Positions 1 to 7,467 of a stretch of DNA of 14,250 bases are shown here, in pieces. The notes below the pieces were generated by a model, which was given only the letters and a program-made list of their open reading frames with translations, was not told the origin of the DNA and ran no database searches. This DNA comes from a virus. Its lineage: Duplodnaviria; Heunggongvirae; Uroviricota; Caudoviricetes. Within the stretch, counting starts at the first letter, position 1, and each line of letters opens with the position of its first letter. Position numbers and translations under genes: made by a program. The DNA is taken from positions 1 through 14,250 of IMG/VR virus record IMGVR_UViG_3300015157_000014; one strand, 5' to 3'.

Positions 1-32
1 GATACGATCACATTGGCTGTAATGTCTGTCAT
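1..32 (-). CDS. Tailspike protein, N-terminal 10 codons only (5' partial gene; P22 gene 9 homolog)
   Basis: Reverse complement of 3..32 translates MTDITANVIV, matching the P22 tailspike N-terminus as I recall it (MTDITANVVV...). A GGAG-like sequence lies about 9 nt upstream. It sits downstream of ant, as in P22. The call rests on very few residues. Confidence 0.65.
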   Translation of the reverse strand, partial: MTDITANVIV

Positions 33-90
33 TTAATTTGCTCCAGATACAATGAATCGCCGCAGCGTGGCCACGGTGAATTTTGGGCAT

Positions 91-113
91 AAAAAAACCC
101 AGCCGAAGCTGGG
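91..113 (-). terminator. Rho-independent terminator downstream of ant
   Basis: On the minus strand, 6-bp GC-rich stem (cccagc/gctggg, 98..113) with a UUCG loop, immediately followed by a 7-U run (91..97). Lies 19 nt after the ant stop. Confidence 0.6.
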
Positions 114-132
114 TCGTTGCGTTGGTTATCTG

Positions 133-1023
133 TCAGTAGTTATGTACTGAAGGAGGTAATTCTTTATTCTTAAGTCTCATCCATGCGGAAAGATTCTTTG
201 GTCCGTCTGGCTCATTGATATCAACATCTCGTGTGTGATTGATTAAAACGTCTCTCGCCATTCCGATAACATACGAGAATTCATGACCGTAGTCGTAGCA
301 TCTGCCTGAATAGTTCGATTGAATTTGTTTTAGCGCCGGATACAGTTCGCGGAATAATGCCTGTGAACGGTTGGCATAATCCCATAACCATACAAGGCTG
401 TTTGCTTCTTTTGCAGAAAGCTCGTTGGTTTTCTTCTCTTGTTTGCCGATGAATTCACCTTCAAGCACTACCCTGTGGATGTACTCTACGGCCAGCGGGA
501 TTTGTTCAATTGAAAGTTCATCAATGCTGTCAATACCAAAACGCTGATGAACCATATTGTATGCATCGTCATAGCGAAGTCCTTTCTTTCCTACCAGCAT
601 GTTTACTGCATCTCGTAGCGGTGTGCGTTCAGCTACTGAAGTTTTACCTCCAATAGCCTTCCTCTCTTGTGTGGCAGTAACCATTGCGTCATATGCACGG
701 ATAACCTTCAGCGCAAAGGCTGCGCTAATCCACATGGCGTAGGAGTAAACAAGCTCCTTGCACACGTAGGTTCCACCATATCGACCTTTCTTAGAAAGGA
801 CGGGATTCTTATTCTGCATATCCGCAGAATTAAAAATTTCATTAATCAATTCAATAGTTTCATTTCTACGCATGAAGAAAGCTGGCTGATGTTTTTCCTC
901 CTTTCCAGACGCTACATGAAGGTCATTAAGCGAGTAACGCCCCTCTGAATCCATATGAATCTTGACGTCAGAAATGATGATGCTATTAGTGCAATTTACA
1001 GTTGACTTTGCTAAGCTTGACAT
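133..1023 (-). CDS. ant: Antirepressor Ant-like protein (296 aa)
   Basis: Long ORF downstream of arc in the same orientation, close in size to P22 Ant (about 300 aa by recollection). GAGG Shine-Dalgarno about 9 nt upstream of the ATG. The N-terminal region looks like a phage antirepressor DNA-binding domain, but I did not verify the domain. Confidence 0.7.
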
Positions 1024-1055
1024 ATCAATAATACCTCGTAAGTTTTGTTGATACC

Positions 1056-1096
1056 GAAGCCCTGACTGTTACAGCAGTTGGGGCTTCAACGTTTTT
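1056..1096 (+). terminator. Plus-strand hairpin plus T-run; candidate terminator of a sar-like antisense RNA
   Basis: Extended stem 1056..1087 (gaagccc.../...gggcttc with inner actg/cagt pairing), then aacg and TTTTT (1092..1096) on the plus strand. The minus strand has no U-run after it, so it is orientation-specific. The T-run is 4 nt away from the stem, which weakens the call. Confidence 0.3.
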
Positions 1097-1355
1097 CCAC
1101 TTCATTTTGAATTTGCTTAAGTAGCATATTTGTCTCGTCAAGCCTCTTGTTAATACGGTCAAGGCTTTCTACTAAATCGTTATGTGCATGTGATACTTCG
1201 TAATTTGAGACTGATTTTTTTTCCTCTATCGTCTTTGTCAATCGTTCCCCTGATTGATACATATTGATTAACGATGTAAAAATCACGAGCAAGCAAACTA
1301 CAATGATTGCGCCAGACAAAAATTGTAAAGAACGATCAAGCAATGACACCTTCAT
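1086..1355 (-). CDS. Hypothetical small membrane protein (89 aa): one N-terminal transmembrane helix plus C-terminal coiled coil, inserted between arc and ant
   Basis: ATG overlaps the arc TGA stop (ATGA overlap at 1352..1355). GAGAGGGG Shine-Dalgarno-like sequence upstream within the arc 3' end. Hydrophobic stretch AIIVVCLLVIFTSLI followed by a heptad-like charged segment. Visibly AT-rich. Confidence 0.55.
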   Translation of the reverse strand: MKVSLLDRSLQFLSGAIIVVCLLVIFTSLINMYQSGERLTKTIEEKKSVSNYEVSHAHNDLVESLDRINKRLDETNMLLKQIQNEVEKR

Positions 1356-1510
1356 ACCGTAATCCCCTCTCTCTTCAGGCTGTCCATCACTCGCTTGTAA
1401 ATCTCAGAGTTAACAGATCGCCCGTTCTCTTCCGCCACCTTACGCACCAAATCCAATACTTCTTTAGGCCACCGCAAATTGAACTGCGGCATTTTGCTCA
1501 TTCCTTTCAT
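1352..1510 (-). CDS. arc: Arc repressor (ribbon-helix-helix), 52 aa
   Basis: Translation MKGMSKMPQFNLRWPKEVLDLVRKVAEENGRSVNSEIYKRVMDSLKREGITV is near-identical to P22 Arc as I recall it (MKGMSKMPQFNLRWPREVLDLVRKVAEENGRSVNSEIY...). GAGGTGA Shine-Dalgarno 4-5 nt upstream. The start is at the internal Met of the 73-aa track ORF. Confidence 0.9.
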   Translation of the reverse strand: MKGMSKMPQFNLRWPKEVLDLVRKVAEENGRSVNSEIYKRVMDSLKREGITV

Positions 1511-1524
1511 ATTCACCTCACAAT

Positions 1525-1545
1525 ATAGGTCCACCGTGGACCTAT
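1525..1545. promoter_or_regulatory. Mnt operator (O_mnt), perfect 21-bp palindrome
   Basis: ataggtccaccgtggacctat is a perfect inverted repeat about a central base. Its core aggtccac-c-gtggacct matches the P22 mnt operator as I recall it. It overlaps the predicted Pant transcription start. Confidence 0.85.
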
Positions 1546-1573
1546 TGAGAATATAGTAGAGTGCTTCTATCAT
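1545..1573 (+). promoter_or_regulatory. Pmnt promoter (drives mnt and probably the downstream cassette)
   Basis: Plus strand reads TTGAGA (1545..1550), a 17-nt spacer, then TATCAT (1568..1573). It overlaps Pant divergently and is covered by O_arc. GGGGTGA Shine-Dalgarno precedes the mnt ATG. Confidence 0.6.
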
Positions 1574-1578
1574 GTCAA
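1550..1578 (-). promoter_or_regulatory. Pant promoter (drives arc-orf89-ant)
   Basis: Minus strand reads TTGACA (1573..1578), a 17-nt spacer, then TATATT (1550..1555). Predicted start near 1542 falls inside O_mnt. Confidence 0.7.
1553..1573. promoter_or_regulatory. Arc operator (O_arc)
   Basis: atagtagagtgcttctatcat is the reverse complement of ATGATAGAAGCACTCTACTAT, the P22 arc operator as I recall it, with TAGA/TCTA half-sites. It sits between the -35 and -10 of Pant and over the Pmnt -10. Confidence 0.8.
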
Positions 1579-1600
1579 TACACTAACTTGGGGTGATGGC

Positions 1601-1849
1601 ATGGCTAGAGACGATCCGCACTTTAACTTCCGTATGCCTTTGGAAGTAAGAGAAAAATTGAAATTAAGAGCAGAGGCTAACGGAAGGTCAATGAACTCTG
1701 AGTTATTACAAATCGTTCAGGATGCTCTCTCAAAGCCATCACCGATTGCAGGCTATCGAGACGAAGCTGAACGCTTGGCTGATCAGCAAGCAGAAATTGT
1801 TAAGAAGATGGTGTTTGAAACCCTGAAAAAAATGTACGAGACCAGATAG
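1601..1849 (+). CDS. mnt: Mnt repressor (ribbon-helix-helix; maintenance of lysogeny, represses Pant), 82 aa
   Basis: Translation MARDDPHFNFRMPLEVREKLKLRAEANGRSMNSELLQIVQDALSKPSP... is near-identical to P22 Mnt as I recall it. Divergent from arc across the operator region. Confidence 0.9.
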   Translation: MARDDPHFNFRMPLEVREKLKLRAEANGRSMNSELLQIVQDALSKPSPIAGYRDEAERLADQQAEIVKKMVFETLKKMYETR

Positions 1850-1891
1850 GTCAATGTTTGTTCGTTGATATAAAATAACAAGGTATACATT

Positions 1892-2491
1892 GTGATTGAG
1901 ATAGGCGTTATGGCCATCCTGAATCAAGAGCCAGGAAAAATTGAAAACGTTTTTTCTGACATATCAACATCTATCGAGCGTTCAATTTCAGACTTTGATC
2001 GCAGTCATAGCGGCTCTTTGTCTAAAAAACAGGCTTCTGAAGCTCTTAGCAAGATCTACTGCGTTATGTCACCTGTAGAGGAAGTTTGCAAAAAGTACAT
2101 TACATTCATTGACATATTAAGTAATGGTACGGAAGAAGATATTTCCTCACTTGATATTCAACATGACGATGTAGATATGTTGAACGATCAAATATCTAAG
2201 CTTGATTATGGTATCGCGAAACTGTTGTATACCTTCTTCATCGCTGAGAACAGCGATGCGTGGAAGCCCCATATGTCAACTCTTACAACAATGAAAAACC
2301 ACTCAATAAATACTTTTATAGAATACAAAAGGCTAACTATGGGGCTTGTGACGCTAGCAATGCAGCACATACCACTATCATATGCTGAACCTGAAGAGTT
2401 CACTGAAGAAGAGTTGGCTTCATTCAAGAAATCAGTTGAAGATTCACATAAAAGATTTGGCATGGAAGCACCAAAATGGAAAACCGCATAA
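1892..2491 (+). CDS. Hypothetical protein (199 aa; 193 aa if the ATG at 1910 is used), acidic, no transmembrane segment; first gene of the accessory cassette
   Basis: Long ORF in visibly AT-rich DNA, directly downstream of mnt with no terminator seen in between. Its 3' end overlaps the next ORF by 16 nt. Start is ambiguous (GTG at 1892 or ATG at 1910). No recognisable motif. Confidence 0.55.
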   Translation: MIEIGVMAILNQEPGKIENVFSDISTSIERSISDFDRSHSGSLSKKQASEALSKIYCVMSPVEEVCKKYITFIDILSNGTEEDISSLDIQHDDVDMLNDQISKLDYGIAKLLYTFFIAENSDAWKPHMSTLTTMKNHSINTFIEYKRLTMGLVTLAMQHIPLSYAEPEEFTEEELASFKKSVEDSHKRFGMEAPKWKTA

Positions 2492-2895
2492 GCATTGTTG
2501 TAGATGCAGCGGCTGGACCATTAGAACAATACTTTGCGAAGGCTCTTGCAAACTACAAAAACAGAGGCACCGTTTCAGCTTATCTTGGTAAGATTGGTGG
2601 GTTTGAGAGAAACCATCACGCCGTCTTATCGGGAATTTACAAGTCGCACATCAGGATCCCTGGAGTAGATGATCCTTGGTTAAAAACAACGCCAATACAT
2701 CGTAGAGTTAGCGATAACTTTTTGATATTTGCGGTACACAACACATATCCAATTCATATCCAGATCATTGCTATCATTAAACCTGATGGTCATGAGAAGG
2801 TAAAAAAACTATTGCCAGCCATCATTGATATAACTGAAAAAAGATTCCAATCTCTAAATGAGAGGGAGCTTAACTCGTTGATTTCATACAAATAA
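2476..2895 (+). CDS. Hypothetical basic protein (139 aa) with a possible RelE/YafQ-like toxin-fold signature
   Basis: ATG preceded by GGAAG about 7 nt upstream; overlaps the 199-aa ORF by 16 nt. The segment GIYKSH...DDPW...HRR...FLIFAVH...IQIIAIIKPDGHE loosely resembles the YafQ/RelE C-terminal pattern (YKDH...PDWILIY...LLRFERTGTH). This rests on weak motif similarity only. Confidence 0.55.
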   Translation: MENRISIVVDAAAGPLEQYFAKALANYKNRGTVSAYLGKIGGFERNHHAVLSGIYKSHIRIPGVDDPWLKTTPIHRRVSDNFLIFAVHNTYPIHIQIIAIIKPDGHEKVKKLLPAIIDITEKRFQSLNERELNSLISYK

Positions 2896-2917
2896 AATAT
2901 CAACTAAGGGGGTTAGT

Positions 2918-3247
2918 GTGCTTGAATGGTTTCTGTTGGCTGCATTAGTCGTTTCTGGTTTGGTGTATGAGTATCGAATGCACTCTCTAACAAAAAAAAT
3001 AGGAATTCTAGAAAACGAATATTGTGCTCTCAAATCCTCACTGGAACGTGATCAAGGAGACTTAAAAATCTCTCTGTCTAGCATTGAGCGTTCTATAGAG
3101 AGCCTAGAGGATAAGGTTGATCGTATAAAGAATGAGGATATTCATGATATTAAGGACGACATATCCTTCTTAAAATCTTGGTTGAAAAATGTTGGGAAAA
3201 TTGCCACATCAACACGAGATAAGCTCAATCCATCCATGGATGACTAA
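2918..3247 (+). CDS. Hypothetical small membrane protein (109 aa): N-terminal transmembrane helix plus coiled coil
   Basis: GTG start with strong AAGGGGG Shine-Dalgarno 5 nt upstream. Hydrophobic N-terminus WFLLAALVVSGLV, then a heptad-like charged region. Its stop abuts the gp16 stop on the opposite strand (TAATTA). Confidence 0.55.
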   Translation: MLEWFLLAALVVSGLVYEYRMHSLTKKIGILENEYCALKSSLERDQGDLKISLSSIERSIESLEDKVDRIKNEDIHDIKDDISFLKSWLKNVGKIATSTRDKLNPSMDD

Positions 3248-5416
3248 TTACTCCTGTGCCATTCCGCTTAGCGATGCCACAATTCCAGCCCTTGCTAAAC
3301 GCTGGAACTCTTCGTTTCCTAGTGCCTCGCGTATTGCTTTTACGGCGGCCTTATTTGCCATAAATCTGCGTTCCGCCGCCGCTAATGCACCATCACTTGC
3401 CCCAACCTTAACTGCCTTTGTTGCCTCTTGAACAGCCTTTTCAATAGCGTAACGACCGCTTCTAGTTGCGGATAATTTCGCTATCGCTCCTTTTGCCATT
3501 GCATCAATTGCTCCACCTGCAGCGCCACCCGCTATTGCTCCAATAACGCCTCCTCCAGAGAACCCTGCGATAGTGCCAGTAGTTCTAAAAGCGCCAGACA
3601 ATGCGCTCTCTAAAACTGGATGAAGGCCATTCTCAAGAGTGCTAATGGCTGGCATAGATCGCCCTGTCTGTTCAACATATCGAAGTGGCTTTGTTGCTGC
3701 TCTTGCAAGTTCTCCGTATGAACTTGTAATCCTGCCAAGTTCTGGAGAATATCGACTAATTGCCTTCACGTTTTGTGGGGTAAGAATAGTCGCGATATGC
3801 TTAATTCCAGCCTCTTCAGACTTACCTCCGCGTACCCCTTGCGACATTGCATCTTGTAATATTGATGCAATTGCTGGCGCGCGTTCCGACTCAGGTAGGG
3901 CGCTTATTATTTTATGGAACTGACCTGTTCCACTTTTTGCTGAGCCCTGTAACGCCTTAGAGCCATTATTTACCAACTGATCAGTTGCAAGGTCTCTGCC
4001 AAACGCTGCTTCAGCCTGTTCTTGTGCTGTAAATCTTGCCTTTGACAGGTCATTAGCTTTTTGCCAGTCATCAAGAAAACCGCCATTTTGAGCCATTATG
4101 CGCATATCTTCCGTTGCTGCATCACGAAGCTCAGCCATGCGCCTTGCCGTATTTGCCTCACCAGACCTTATATACTTCTGCTCTGCGTCAGCAAGTTTAC
4201 TTCGCCATGCCTTCATGGCATCAAACGTGATTCCTTTTTTACCAGTTTTAGCATAAGCAGATGCGAATTGTTTCATCTCAGGAGTTAGCGGCATGCCAGC
4301 CAAAATATCACCCTGAATTGTAGCGTTCAGGTTTGACATTCTGGCCTTTGCGTCAGGCATCGTGGAGCGGACGCTATCCCATGCGGCCTTTTCTGAATTT
4401 TTCATTTTATCAATGCTTGCCAAAACCCTCTGTTTTATGGCTGCACTTTTTTCTGATGCAGTTCCTGCTTCAGCCCCAAACTCATCCAATGCTGAGTTAA
4501 ATTTCGACTCTATTTCACTGAATGCTTTGGTGTGTGCATCCTGTGTAATTCCGGGCTTTGACGCCAGAATCCCCTCCGCCTGAGCAAGACCACGACTACC
4601 TGATCTCATGCCAGGAGTTAATGCGTTGATATCTATTCCAGCAGTATCTGCTGCTTTTGCTATTTCGTCTGACACATTAGCTGACTGTCTGGCAATAATC
4701 TCTCTTCCTGTACCAGACTTTGCCATTTTCGAAACATCAGCAGCGGAATTTATTGCCCCGCCACCAAGAACTTGAGGTGATTTAGAGGTTAAGATCCTTC
4801 CAGCCCCAGAAAGTATCCCCTGAGCACCAATATTGATACCACCGTTAATGGCAGCATTTTGTGCAAAGTCGCCCTCCTGATTTGCAGCATCAGCAAGAGA
4901 ACCTGCAATCATGTTTCCTGCGGAACCGATATCTCCAGCGAGCTTTGCTGGCGCTCCAGCAGCTTTTGCCGCTGTGCCAATTGGCAGGAGATACCCACCA
5001 ATTGTTTCACCGGCTTGCGCATAAGGGTCTGTCGGTCGATCGACTGGACGATAGACATCATCCAAAACCTTTGGGCCACCAAGCCCCTGGCTGATTGCAT
5101 TAATCAGACTTGCGCCACCCTGCAATACGTCAAATGGTATGTTTACCAGACCACGACCAGCCTGTTCTGCAATTTGCCCTGCACTTTGACCACCTGTGAG
5201 CCAATCACCAGCTTGTTGCATCAATGATGGTTCTTCTTTCTGCTGCTGAGGTGGAGGGTATGCTGCATAAAACTGATCTCTTGCTTCAGCCCATTTGTCA
5301 CCAGCCTTAGGGGCAACAACCTCATCAAAATATTGCGCTTGAGCCTGTGCTTTCTGTTCTTCAGTTAACGCCTGATACTGTGGAGAAGCGATAACATCTT
5401 TCCATGCTTTAGCCAT
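3248..5416 (-). CDS. Ejection (internal virion) protein, gp16-like, 722 aa
   Basis: Last gene of the minus-strand late operon, at the position of P22 gene 16. Ala/Gly/Gln-rich composition typical of podovirus ejection proteins. Start overlaps the gp20 stop (TAATG). Confidence 0.8.
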
Positions 5417-6765
5417 TAATCACCCCATAAAGACGAGAAACCGGACTTATTGCTGTCGCTTCCTGATTTTCGCTCACTAACATATGTGTCATAACCTGAT
5501 GAACTATATCCCATTGATTCAGCCTCCCTTGCTGCAACCTTTTGAAATACAGAATATTGCGATCGGATTTCAGATAACTGTTTTCTGACGACCTCTTCAG
5601 GCTGTGTTATATCGAGTTTCGCGATAAGGTTTTCCAGTTTTTGTCCTTCAGCATTGGAGAGGCTACCCATACCTCGCATAGTCTGCACGTTCTGGACAAA
5701 CGCACCCGACTTTAATTCTTCTATCGCATTACGGTTTGCAAGCCCTTCAGCACTTGTGAAGCCATCTATATTTCTTCCTTCGAAGCGACCGATACCTTCA
5801 AGCTCCTTCTTACCAAGCAAAGAATCTATTTTCTCTATCCCTCGCTCACCAGTAATCAACGCATTGTTGTAATTATTGTTGCCATCAAGCCATCTCTTAG
5901 CCTGAGACATTCTGGCTGACGTTGCAGCTTTACCGGTTAGCGGATCAATTCCCGTCGCTGCTATCTGTGAGTTAAGAGACAAAACATCCATATCCTGAAG
6001 TTGTCCTGCTCTTTCAAGGGCCGCCTGTGACTGCTTAAACACATACTTGTCGTGATTCAGTCTTGCCATTTGAGCCTTATAGGAAAGATCCTGCCCCCTA
6101 ATAGCCCTCGCATTCGTCATGTCATTATTGCGAATGGTTTCGTTAATTCTTTGCTGCTCCTGCTGGCGACCAACCATCTTATCCTGAACAGCAAACGCCT
6201 TTTCTGGCCCAAGTGCACCGAGAGACATAGTAGTCAGCATGTGTGATAGCTGCTCTGGATTCTGAATACCTGTCTGAATCATCCAGTCAGCATTCGCCCC
6301 CACGCGATTTAACCTGTCCTTGTTATCAGTAATGAATTTACTGTAGGCTTCCGGTCCCTGAGAAAGAGCGACGTTAGCCCTCATGGCTAAATCGCCCATA
6401 TCGTTGCGTTGCTGCTCATTAAGACCGGAAAATGCCTGTTGTGCCTGTGCAACAAACGCTGGATTTTCCTGGGCAAACTTAAATAGTCCCGATGGATCAC
6501 CAGAAGCCCATGCATCAGCGTGAACCTTATTGAACGCATTAATCGCTTTCTGTTGCTGTTCCTGCTTATAAATATCAGCAACTCCAGCCAGACCACGTAA
6601 CGCGGTCAGACCAACGTTATTTGCACCTGAGCGAGCCAATTCATTGTTTTCGCGGATCAGACCAAGCGTTGCGTTAATGTCGCTTGCCTTTGGCGCATTC
6701 TCGTTTTGCGCACCAATGCCAGCCAGAAAACCACCAGAATTAATACCCTGTTGCCACGTAGCCAT
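5416..6765 (-). CDS. Ejection protein, gp20-like, 449 aa
   Basis: Position and size fit P22 gp20 (about 471 aa by recollection). Translationally coupled to gp16. Confidence 0.8.
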
Positions 6766-6774
6766 GATTACCCC

Positions 6775-7467
6775 TTAAAACAACGAGCCAAGCAGACCAA
6801 GACCGCCGCCGATCGCAGCCCCCCACGGAGTTGATAGCTCGAGAGCACTGGCTATGCCACCACCCAAAAGCGCACCGGATGCAGCACCACTAACCCCCTG
6901 CTGCAATGCTGACGGTCGGTTGGCGTTTGCCGCAGCCAGCGCCGCGCTTTGCTGCGAAATCTGACTCATGTTGTTGGCATATGTCTGCCCGGCGTTCGCC
7001 TGACCTTGCAGTGCGCCAAGACCAATGTTTGCCAGATTCTGGTAGTTGTTCATCTGACCAGACAGCCACTGCTGACCAAGCGTTGGTGCGATTGTTGCTA
7101 ACTGATTACTGGTTGCGGTGGAACCCAATCCACCTGTTGCTTCCGCTGCAGCCAGACTCTGATAGCGAGCCTGACCTGCAAGGTCTTTATACTGCTGAGA
7201 GTTGTAATACTGGTTAAGCGCCTGACCTTGCCCTTCCAGAGACGATAAGTTCTCGAGGCTGCCGACATACTTATCAGCCAGAGGAGTAAACGGCTTCAGG
7301 TTGTTCATGATGGTGTTGAACTGCTGATTTTGCAGGTCTGCAGCATACTTCTGGGCTTCTGCTGCATACTTTGCGCTTTTATCAGAACTGCCACCTTTCC
7401 CGCCTTTTTCAGGGCAATAAGGTTCCTCGCCGCGCAGTTTTCTGCCCAGCTTAAATGCATATAACAT
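6775..7467 (-). CDS. Ejection protein, gp7-like, 230 aa, Gly-rich C-terminus
   Basis: Position and size fit P22 gp7 (about 229 aa by recollection). Gly/Ala-rich hydrophobic C-terminal tail. Confidence 0.75.
   Translation of the reverse strand: MLYAFKLGRKLRGEEPYCPEKGGKGGSSDKSAKYAAEAQKYAADLQNQQFNTIMNNLKPFTPLADKYVGSLENLSSLEGQGQALNQYYNSQQYKDLAGQARYQSLAAAEATGGLGSTATSNQLATIAPTLGQQWLSGQMNNYQNLANIGLGALQGQANAGQTYANNMSQISQQSAALAAANANRPSALQQGVSGAASGALLGGGIASALELSTPWGAAIGGGLGLLGSLF

What the first reader, a model, noticed from the sequence alone, without database searches (positions are those of the whole stretch)
2918..3247. Small single-pass membrane coiled-coil protein ending stop-to-stop against gp16
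The 109-aa ORF has a GTG start with a strong AAGGGGG Shine-Dalgarno, one N-terminal transmembrane helix and a long charged heptad-like C-terminal region. Its TAA stop is directly adjacent to the gp16 stop on the other strand (TAATTA), with no intergenic space or terminator. Inner-membrane proteins encoded next to the ejection-protein genes are the classic superinfection-exclusion architecture (SieA-like or Imm-like, by analogy). This is a candidate for blocking DNA entry of incoming related phages.
Basis: partly seen in the sequence, partly recalled or inferred. Interest (0 to 1): 0.55.

Follow-up and report, generated by a model that had tools for sequence, protein, structure and literature searches.

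The report
HkcB: membrane-anchored coiled-coil prophage protein
The ORF is a real, conserved accessory gene (hkcB, function unknown since 2001) of P22-like prophages that encodes a small membrane-anchored helical rod and always sits tail-to-tail against the DNA-ejection gene 16; it may block entry of rival phage DNA, but it is unrelated to the known exclusion protein SieA and nothing has been tested.

Summary
ORF 2918..3247 has a GTG start and an AAGGGGG Shine-Dalgarno, and encodes 109 aa. It has an N-terminal hydrophobic segment and one long heptad-patterned helix. Its TAA abuts the gene 16 stop (TAATTA), and no terminator-like site lies nearby.

The gene is already catalogued as hkcB of phage HK620 (98% nt identity, "unknown"; phrog_5962). 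The window is 100% identical to a P22-like prophage of E. coli APEC E19035.

Homologues show purifying selection over the whole length (dN/dS about 0.1-0.3). The family is tiny and was found only in P22-like prophages. In 58 of 63 IMG/VR loci the gene is intact with a 0-nt gap to gene 16, although the upstream neighbours fall into about 30 different arrangements.

It is not a SieA or Imm family member: there is no sequence similarity, one hydrophobic segment instead of three, and no FxRYPxEAxxFNK motif.

It occupies the sieA slot and never co-occurs with sieA. It is always linked to one gp16 C-terminal tail type, whereas sieA types A and B go with another.

Flanking charges predict an N-out/C-in topology, which would put the rod and its near-invariant tip (W-x-x-NVG-x-IATSTRDK) in the cytoplasm.

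Superinfection exclusion is the best guess (about 0.4) and remains untested.

The parts
2918..3247 (+). hkcB coding sequence (109 aa plus TAA), GTG start
   Evidence: 98% nt identity to HK620 hkcB. phrog_5962 E=3.6e-61 over the full length. dN/dS 0.1-0.3.
2906..2912 (+). Shine-Dalgarno AAGGGGG, 5 nt before the GTG
   Evidence: AAGG(A/G)GG is present in 52 of 58 intact IMG/VR loci and in all 8 loci.
2870..2898 (+). Sigma-70-like site TTAACT-17-TAAAAT just upstream (a consensus match only). hkcB could also be read from the mnt promoter-like site at 1545..1573 through mnt, orf199 and the yafO-like gene.
   Evidence: 9 of 12 matches, and no + strand terminator-like site between 1489 and 3915. Expression was not tested.
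2921..2968 (+). N-terminal hydrophobic segment (residues 2-17, LEWFLLAALVVSGLVY), the putative membrane anchor
   Evidence: There is no K/R before it, and 3 K/R in the 15 residues after it. This pattern holds in every family member and predicts N-out/C-in.
2978..3226 (+). Long amphipathic heptad-patterned helix (residues 21-103)
   Evidence: AF2 single helix 2-103, pLDDT 84.5. Heptad enrichment exceeds all 2000 shuffles.
3113..3244 (+). Conserved C-terminal block (residues 66-109). Its core is W88-x-x-N91-V-G-x-I-A-T-S-T-R-D-K, near-invariant across sequence types.
   Evidence: Alignments A1-A3. Distant members keep W..NVG. Synonymous changes are abundant, so the constraint is on the protein.
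3245..3250 (.). Stop-to-stop junction TAATTA (hkcB TAA / gene 16 TAA)
   Evidence: The gap is 0 nt in 8 loci, 0 nt in 58 of the 63 IMG/VR loci that also have an intact ORF and GTG start, and 3-4 nt in the two most distant members.
3251..3385 (-). Conserved C-terminal tail of gp16 (..[43 protein letters not shown]) that accompanies every hkcB
   Evidence: The P22 and HS1 gp16 tails are different. The same tail also occurs in phages without hkcB.

Best explanation
hkcB is an accessory ('moron') gene of P22-like prophages.

Shown:
- It is a real gene under purifying selection.
- It encodes a roughly 100-residue single helix whose first 16 or so residues are hydrophobic.
- It always lies convergent to and abutting gene 16, in the slot that sieA occupies in P22.
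- It is dispensable for making infectious phage.

Inferred:
- The protein inserts in the inner membrane N-out/C-in and oligomerises through its heptad repeats into a cytoplasmic rod about 12 nm long, capped by the near-invariant tip W-x-x-NVG-x-IATSTRDK.
- It is made in the lysogen, either from its own leader or from the mnt operon.
- Late transcription, which runs antisense through it, would oppose its expression during lytic growth.

Proposed function: superinfection exclusion at the inner membrane. HkcB would interfere with the gp16 end of the DNA-delivery conduit of incoming P22-like phages. It would be a functional analogue of SieA but not a relative.
For: Real gene: conserved GTG plus SD, and dN/dS 0.1-0.3 over all segments.

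Architecture.

Position: the junction with gene 16 is conserved in 58 of 63 IMG/VR loci, and in loci from Salmonella, Klebsiella aerogenes and two distant members, while about 30 different upstream arrangements occur.

Same slot as sieA, and no sieA type A or B in any of 84 hkcB-related sources.

Accessory status: CurroJimenez, Dewey and phiSG1 carry the same gp16 tail with no hkcB.

Expression:
- In L015 hkcB directly follows mnt.
- In the window it follows mnt, orf199 and the yafO-like gene on one strand with no terminator-like site.
- A 32-nt leader is conserved in 47 of 58 loci.

Precedent (PMC10883804):
- Its escape mutations lie in the C-terminal regions of gp16 and gp20.
- Its conserved motif is predicted to be cytoplasmic.
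Against: - There is no experimental or transcript evidence for HkcB, and I found no paper on its function.
- There is no similarity to any exclusion or defence family.
- The link to the gp16 tail and the absence of sieA can both be explained by physical linkage and mosaic recombination alone.
- The hydrophobic segment of this variant is short and marginal, and membrane insertion and topology are only predicted.
- A cytoplasmic rod cannot reach the periplasmic gp20 tube.
- The promoter calls are consensus matches only.
Confidence: 0.4

Rival explanations
1. A prophage-expressed moron with a different role. Examples: a membrane-anchored sensor or effector of abortive infection against unrelated phages, or a modulator of a host cytoplasmic or membrane process such as division or envelope biogenesis. 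Its position next to gene 16 would then reflect only where morons are tolerated.
For: - The ant moron holds many unrelated cargo genes: a YafO-like toxin, a ClpP-like protein, hkcC and others.
- The predicted cytoplasmic rod with a conserved tip suits binding of a cytoplasmic partner.
- There is no similarity to any known exclusion protein.
Against: - Other cargo genes come and go, but hkcB is always the gene-16-proximal one, with a 0-4 nt gap.
- The family is confined to P22-like prophages that carry one gp16 tail type. That is unexpected for a general host-directed or broad defence function.
Confidence: 0.3
2. A lytic-cycle helper of the phage itself, for example a membrane factor that affects lysis timing or the handling of gp16 during assembly or after entry.
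For: - It is tightly and invariantly coupled to the 3' end of gene 16 and to one gp16 tail type.
- There are weak architectural echoes of Rz-like i-spanins (phrog_739 E=0.08; NF038368 E=0.049).
Against: - It is on the strand opposite the late operon, so late transcripts are antisense to it.
- The window shows no partner o-spanin beside it, and hkcB lies in the ant moron, not among lysis genes.
- Phages with the same gp16 tail propagate without it.
- The spanin-type matches are far below threshold.
- The flanking charges are opposite to an N-in/C-out spanin.
Confidence: 0.1
3. A true member of the SieA or T4 Imm families, as the first reader suggested by analogy.
For: Only position (convergent to gene 16) and a hydrophobic segment.
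Against: - No alignment to P22 SieA at E<=100, and nothing significant to HS1 SieA.
- 109 aa with one hydrophobic segment, against 162-212 aa with 3-4.
- The signature motif is absent.
- No Pfam hit at E<=1 other than generic coiled-coil noise.
Confidence: 0.02
4. Not a functional protein gene: an ORF kept by chance, or because the DNA is a conserved recombination boundary or an RNA element at the end of gene 16.
For: - The 3' third of hkcB plus the 3' end of gene 16 form a block that is more conserved than its flanks.
- Chimeric ORFs reuse the last 44 codons (P0022 and P0023).
Against: - Synonymous sites in that block vary freely while the amino acids do not (C-terminal 44 codons dS 0.3-2.1, dN 0.07-0.28).
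- The ORF is intact in 58 of 63 loci, with start and SD conserved.
- Rfam finds only sar in the window, elsewhere.
Confidence: 0.03

Closest known systems
HkcB of coliphage HK620 (AAK28903.1), CUS-3 ECRS218_0009 and epsilon34 gp14; phrog_5962
   Same: It is the same gene. HK620 is 98% identical in nucleotides and 97% in amino acids. CUS-3 and epsilon34 carry a 50%-identical variant with the same length class, architecture and junction with gene 16.
   Different: Nothing essential differs. The window joins an HK620-type hkcB and gene 16 to a CUS-3-type mnt, orf199 and yafO-like moron. All records list the function as unknown.
P22 SieA superinfection exclusion protein, types A, B and C (Leavitt et al. 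2024, PMC10883804)
   Same: - A membrane-protein gene that is the gene-16-proximal, convergent member of the ant moron of P22-like prophages.
- Prophage cargo that is absent from many relatives.
- The conserved part is predicted to be on the cytoplasmic side.
   Different: - No sequence similarity.
- One hydrophobic segment and a long coiled coil, against 3-4 TM helices.
- No FxRYPxEAxxFNK motif.
- 0 nt rather than 21-22 nt from gene 16.
- Linked to a different gp16 C-terminal tail type.
- The function of HkcB is untested.
HK97 gp15, a moron-encoded exclusion protein that is a predicted inner-membrane protein
   Same: A small prophage moron product predicted to sit in the inner membrane and to block DNA entry of related phages (as summarised in PMC10883804).
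   Different: It belongs to a long-tailed phage and its target is the tape measure/tail tube. Homology was not tested directly here, and no PHROG or Pfam link was found.
Rz-type i-spanins, and E. coli YhcB/ZapG-type bitopic coiled-coil proteins (architecture only; YhcB recalled from memory)
   Same: An N-terminal membrane anchor followed by a long coiled coil.
   Different: - Spanin matches are insignificant (E 0.05-0.08).
- hkcB is not among the lysis genes, and no o-spanin partner lies beside it.
- The predicted orientation is opposite to a spanin.
- No DUF1043 hit at E<=1.

Membership tests
HkcB family (phrog_5962) | Full-length sequence match to the family profile | tested here: met
   E=3.6e-61, residues 2-109 on profile positions 2-109 of 109. 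97-98% identity to HK620 HkcB.
HkcB family (phrog_5962) | Gene lies convergent to and abutting gene 16 of a P22-like prophage | tested here: met
   0-nt gap in the window and in 58 of 63 IMG/VR loci; 3-4 nt in the distant members.
SieA (P22 types A/B/C) | Detectable sequence similarity to SieA | tested here: not met
   No BLASTP alignment at E<=100 to P22 SieA. Best match to HS1 type B is 16 residues at E=0.22. Type C was not tested.
SieA (P22 types A/B/C) | Three (type A) or four predicted transmembrane helices, 162-212 aa | tested here: not met
   109 aa with a single hydrophobic segment at residues 2-17; the rest is one amphipathic helix. The SieA features are taken from PMC10883804.
SieA (P22 types A/B/C) | Conserved motif FxRYPxEAxxFNK near the C-terminus | tested here: not met
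   A six-frame motif scan of the window and 83 related loci found it only in the P22 and HS1 controls.
SieA (P22 types A/B/C) | Gene between genes 16 and 9 of a P22-like prophage | tested here: met
SieA (P22 types A/B/C) | Blocks DNA injection by P22-like phages when expressed alone | not testable with these tools
   This needs plating and potassium-efflux assays.
T4 Imm / other Pfam- or PADLOC-listed exclusion and defence proteins | Match to a curated profile | tested here: not met
   All Pfam hits are generic coiled-coil matches with E>=0.02, below the gathering scores. PADLOC best is E=0.0022 to DpdH at 16 bits. NCBIfam has nothing near its cut-offs.
Rz-like i-spanin | Profile match, an adjacent or embedded o-spanin gene, and N-in/C-out topology | tested here: not met
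   phrog_739 E=0.082. The gene lies in the ant moron with no o-spanin partner beside it. The flanking charges predict N-out/C-in.

The most novel reading that the evidence does not exclude
HkcB is a new, SieA-unrelated exclusion family that works from the cytoplasmic face of the inner membrane.

Its oligomeric rod would present the near-invariant tip (W-x-x-NVG-x-IATSTRDK) to the equally conserved C-terminal tail of gp16 (AAERRF..RAGIV..LSG), which is encoded directly across the stop-to-stop junction. P22-like phages would then carry two alternative co-inherited 'gp16 tail plus cognate membrane blocker' modules: P22-type tail with sieA, and HK620-type tail with hkcB.

This would show where the gp16 C-terminus ends up during DNA delivery.
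Probability: 0.2. Interest if true: 0.65.

Novelty: new variant of a known kind. Interest (0 to 1): 0.4.

Why it matters
How short-tailed phages pass DNA across the inner membrane, and what the C-terminal part of gp16 does, are still open questions. SieA is so far the only handle on this (PMC10883804).

If HkcB is a second, unrelated blocker, it would give an independent probe of the gp16 end of the conduit. It is simple (one helix), it is tied to a different gp16 tail type, and its active end is probably cytoplasmic.

It would also explain part of the exclusion behaviour of the roughly 3% of complete E. coli genomes that match this locus (161 of 5426; 82 cover at least 80% of the query).

If it is not an exclusion protein, it is one more conserved prophage cargo gene of unknown role, and only modestly interesting.

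Tried and rejected
Searches that gave nothing useful:
- Pfam, PHROGs, NCBIfam and PADLOC gave only the function-less phrog_5962 and coiled-coil noise.
- A profile search of PDB sequences gave only generic coiled coils at E>=0.008.
- A Foldseek search of the AF2 model against BFVD gave 0 hits, as expected for a single helix. The other structure libraries were not searched.
- A profile search of 1.84 billion representatives gave about 7 true relatives, all the same architecture, plus long coiled-coil false positives.
- The genome-contig scan (one genome per species) found no relative.
- Literature searches for hkcB, for HK620 with exclusion, and for the RefSeq accession found no functional work. 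The Tai defence paper that mentions HK620 concerns the tail needle, not this gene.

Ideas rejected:
- hkcB is not a paralogue of the other TM-plus-coil ORF in the window, 1086..1355- (BLASTP E=2.7).
- hkcB is not part of the YafO-like toxin pair, because it occurs without that pair in most loci.
- Conservation of the 3' end does not reflect a DNA or RNA constraint, because synonymous sites vary.

Tests that could not be completed:
- Mutual exclusivity with sieA as evidence of shared function was considered. None of 84 sources has sieA, but this is confounded by linkage to different gp16 tail types, and type C SieA was not tested.

Full report
**What is there**

The window is part of a P22-like (Lederbergvirus-type) prophage. 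The late genes lie on the minus strand: gene 16 at 3248..5416, gene 20 at 5416..6765, gene 7 at 6775..7467, and so on.

The "ant moron", or immI region, occupies 1..3247:
- ant, 133..1023 (-)
- sar RNA, 1025..1091 (+)
- an 89-aa ORF, 1086..1355 (-)
- arc, 1352..1573 (-)
- mnt, 1601..1849 (+)
- a 199-aa ORF, 1892..2491 (+)
- a YafO-family toxin gene, 2476..2895 (+)
- the target ORF, 2918..3247 (+)

The window is 100% identical over the tested stretch to a prophage of E. coli O2:K1:H5 APEC E19035. There PGAP calls the ORF a hypothetical protein, WP_001555387.1.

**Check of the observation**

- AAGGGGG at 2906-2912 and GTG at 2918
- 109 codons, with TAA at 3245-3247
- the gene 16 stop as TTA at 3248-3250, so the junction reads TAATTA
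- no terminator-like hairpin on either strand between 1489 and 3915

The ORF is more than a chance reading frame.
- The GTG and its Shine-Dalgarno are conserved in 8 independent loci whose upstream DNA differs, and in 58 of 63 IMG/VR loci.
- Nei-Gojobori comparisons between sequence types give dN/dS of about 0.1-0.3 wherever dS is measurable.
- This holds for the N-terminal hydrophobic codons (window vs L008: 0.22), the central coil (0.14-0.27 for the closer pairs) and the C-terminal 44 codons (window vs epsilon34: dS 1.19, dN 0.17).

**Architecture**

Residues 2-17 (LEWFLLAALVVSGLVY) form the only hydrophobic segment.
- In this HK620-type variant the segment is short and borderline: the best Kyte-Doolittle 19-mer is 1.48, and the Hessa-scale sum is +0.8.
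- In the epsilon34/CUS-3 type it is clear-cut (2.2 and -2.35).
- Hydrophobicity is kept in every member although the residues differ.
- The scales and the usual 1.6 threshold are from my memory. No TMHMM-type program was available.

AlphaFold2 on an 8-sequence alignment predicts one uninterrupted helix over residues 2-103, with mean pLDDT 84.5. The soluble part carries a 3-4-3-4 hydrophobic pattern. Its a/d enrichment was reached by 0 of 2000 shuffles in the three closer variants and by 0.2-0.3% of shuffles in the two distant members. The dominant period is 3.6. "Single-pass anchor plus long heptad helix" is therefore a fair description.

No member has a Lys or Arg before the hydrophobic segment, and all have 2-4 within the 15 residues after it. 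By the positive-inside rule (established knowledge) this predicts N-out/C-in. The rod, about 85 residues or roughly 12 nm, and its tip would then be cytoplasmic. There is no signal-peptide n-region and no lipobox.

**Identity**

The gene is hkcB of coliphage HK620, with 98% nt and 97% aa identity, annotated "unknown". It belongs to phrog_5962, which has no known function.

CUS-3 and epsilon34 (gp14) carry a variant about 50% identical. The epsilon34 genome paper lists it as one of two genes of unknown function in the ant moron (PMC2629481).

The window is mosaic. Its mnt, orf199 and yafO-like genes resemble CUS-3, while hkcB and gene 16 resemble HK620.

**Distribution**

The family is very small.
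- The 5.8-billion-protein collection gave 26 hits.
- A profile search of 1.84 billion representatives gave about 7 true relatives.
- Five of 50,697 phage records carry it.
- 161 of 5426 complete E. coli genomes match the locus, and 82 cover at least 80% of the query.
- IMG/VR holds 63 loci.

Every member whose context could be read lies in a P22-like prophage. Hosts include E. coli, Salmonella and Klebsiella aerogenes, plus one more distant genome.

**The invariants**

1. Position.
- Of the 63 IMG/VR loci, 58 have an intact 107- or 109-codon ORF with GTG and a 0-nt gap to the gene 16 stop.
- Two more are start-codon miscalls by my script.
- One has a frameshift, one has an early stop, and one is at a contig end.
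- The two most distant members have gaps of 3 and 4 nt.
- The upstream neighbours fall into about 30 arrangements. They include divergent hkcC-like or gp15-like genes, a ClpP-like gene, an IS3 element, the YafO-like pair, or mnt directly.

2. The C-terminal block.
- Residues 66-109 are far better conserved than the rest. The core is W88-x-x-NVG-x-IATSTRDK, and the distant members keep W..NVG.
- Synonymous sites there vary, so the constraint is on the protein.

3. The gp16 tail.
- Every hkcB is paired with a gp16 that ends in AAERRF.A.K.A.KA.R.AVG..F.RL.RAGIV..LSG. This holds even where the gp16 bodies are very different. HK620 and CUS-3 gp16 are only 26% identical overall according to PMC10883804.
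- P22 gp16 has an unrelated tail.
- The tail also occurs in phages that have no ant moron and no hkcB: CurroJimenez_Bas106, Dewey, Huey, Louie and Sodalis phiSG1. In them the tailspike gene follows gene 16 directly. hkcB is therefore dispensable cargo, not a virion or injection component.

**Comparison with SieA**

The defining features come from Leavitt et al. 2024 (PMC10883804):
- SieA has 162-164 aa and three predicted TM helices, with one more in types B and C.
- It carries a conserved, probably cytoplasmic motif, FxRYPxEAxxFNK.
- It lies between genes 16 and 9.
- It is in the inner membrane and blocks DNA injection.
- Escape mutations map to the C-terminal regions of gp16 and gp20.

HkcB meets only the positional criterion.
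- It does not align with P22 SieA at E<=100.
- It does not align meaningfully with the type B protein of E. coli HS. I identified that protein as the 212-aa ORF 21 nt after gene 16, carrying FNRYPGEARKFNK.
- It has one hydrophobic segment, and the motif is absent.
- No sieA type A or B occurs in the window or in any of 83 related loci. Type C was not tested.

P22 and HS1 share their own gp16 tail type (..YESK..RN.LLRLANTK.GTPAYERALN..), with sieA 21-22 nt downstream. There are therefore two alternative modules, each a gp16 tail plus a convergent membrane-protein gene. This fits functional analogy, but simple linkage explains it equally well.

**Expression (inferred only)**

- In the window, hkcB is the last of four same-strand genes after the mnt promoter-like site (1545..1573), with gaps of 42, -16 and 22 nt and no terminator-like site. 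A TTAACT-17-TAAAAT site lies at 2870..2898.
- In L015, hkcB follows mnt directly.
- In 47 of 58 intact IMG/VR loci, a 32-nt leader precedes both sequence types even though the DNA further upstream differs: CAT(C)TGGTATCCTGnnCAAAACTAAGGAGGTTGGT. It contains an extended -10-like TGgTATCCT. On the other strand it carries the start region of the divergent neighbour.
- The ant moron sits inside the late operon (PMC2629481). Late transcripts therefore run antisense through hkcB on the way to the tailspike gene.
- That explains why no terminator follows gene 16. It also suggests that hkcB is a lysogen-phase gene opposed by late transcription.

**Mechanism and confidence**

I am about 0.9 confident that this is a real gene for a membrane-anchored, oligomerising helical rod of the HkcB family.

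The function I think most likely, at about 0.4, is superinfection exclusion at the inner membrane, acting on the gp16 end of the conduit of incoming P22-like phages.

The main rival, at about 0.3, is some other lysogen-phase cargo function. A lytic helper role (0.1) is disfavoured by the gene's strand and its dispensability. Membership of SieA or Imm (0.02) and a non-gene explanation (0.03) are essentially excluded.

**Novelty and score**

- The gene has been catalogued since 2001 without a function.
- Added here: the family-wide invariants, the predicted C-in topology, the conserved tip, the pairing with one gp16 tail type as an alternative to the sieA module, and the explicit failure of SieA membership.
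- If HkcB excludes phages, it is a new protein family doing a known kind of job.
- A specialist would find the hypothesis reasonable and easy to test, but not startling. Interest is 0.4.

Noticed in passing
window 1892..2895 (+): A 199-aa ORF (phrog_18235, no Pfam hit) overlaps by 16 nt a YafO-family toxin gene (PF13957 E=1e-11; PGAP calls it a YafO family toxin). This is probably a toxin-antitoxin pair with an unusually large, unclassified upstream partner, carried in the mnt operon of the prophage.
   Followed up: partly
window 1086..1355 (-): A second small TM-plus-coiled-coil ORF (89 aa, phrog_27312) lies between arc and ant. It has a strong hydrophobic segment at residues 12-30 (KD 2.79), and its flanking charges suggest N-in/C-out, the opposite of HkcB. 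It is unrelated in sequence to HkcB (E=2.7) and is present in 4 of 63 IMG/VR loci.
   Followed up: partly
window 1025..1091 (+): sar antisense RNA (RF00262, 63.6 bits, E=1.9e-11) lies between the ant start and the end of the 89-aa ORF. The immI control circuit therefore looks intact.
   Followed up: yes
window 3005..3033 (-), also L002 4104..4132: A good sigma-70-like site (TTGAGA-17-TAGAAT, 10 of 12) lies on the minus strand inside hkcB. In HK620 it points at the divergent hkcC gene, which starts 30 nt from hkcB, so it could be that gene's promoter. In the window there is no hkcC.
   Followed up: no
L022-L084, 70 nt upstream of hkcB: A 32-nt leader (CAT(C)TGGTATCCTGnnCAAAACTAAGGAGGTTGGT) is nearly identical in 47 of 58 loci and in front of both hkcB sequence types, although their 5' coding halves have diverged to saturation at synonymous sites. 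It is either a regulatory element or a recombination boundary. The window and CUS-3 type share only its last 16 nt.
   Followed up: partly
L011 (P22) 1814..2331 and L085 (E. coli HS) 35441..36101: The sieA-bearing prophages P22 (type A) and HS1 (type B) share a gp16 C-terminal tail that is unrelated to the tail linked to hkcB. This gives two alternative 'gp16 tail plus convergent membrane-protein gene' modules.
   Followed up: partly
P0022 and P0023; L055 5001..5084; L019 2256..3376: Signs of turnover around the gene. Two metagenomic ORFs fuse an unrelated N-terminus to the last 44 residues of HkcB. One IMG/VR copy is truncated to 27 codons. One E. coli prophage has an IS3 element 140 nt upstream of an intact hkcB.
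   Followed up: no
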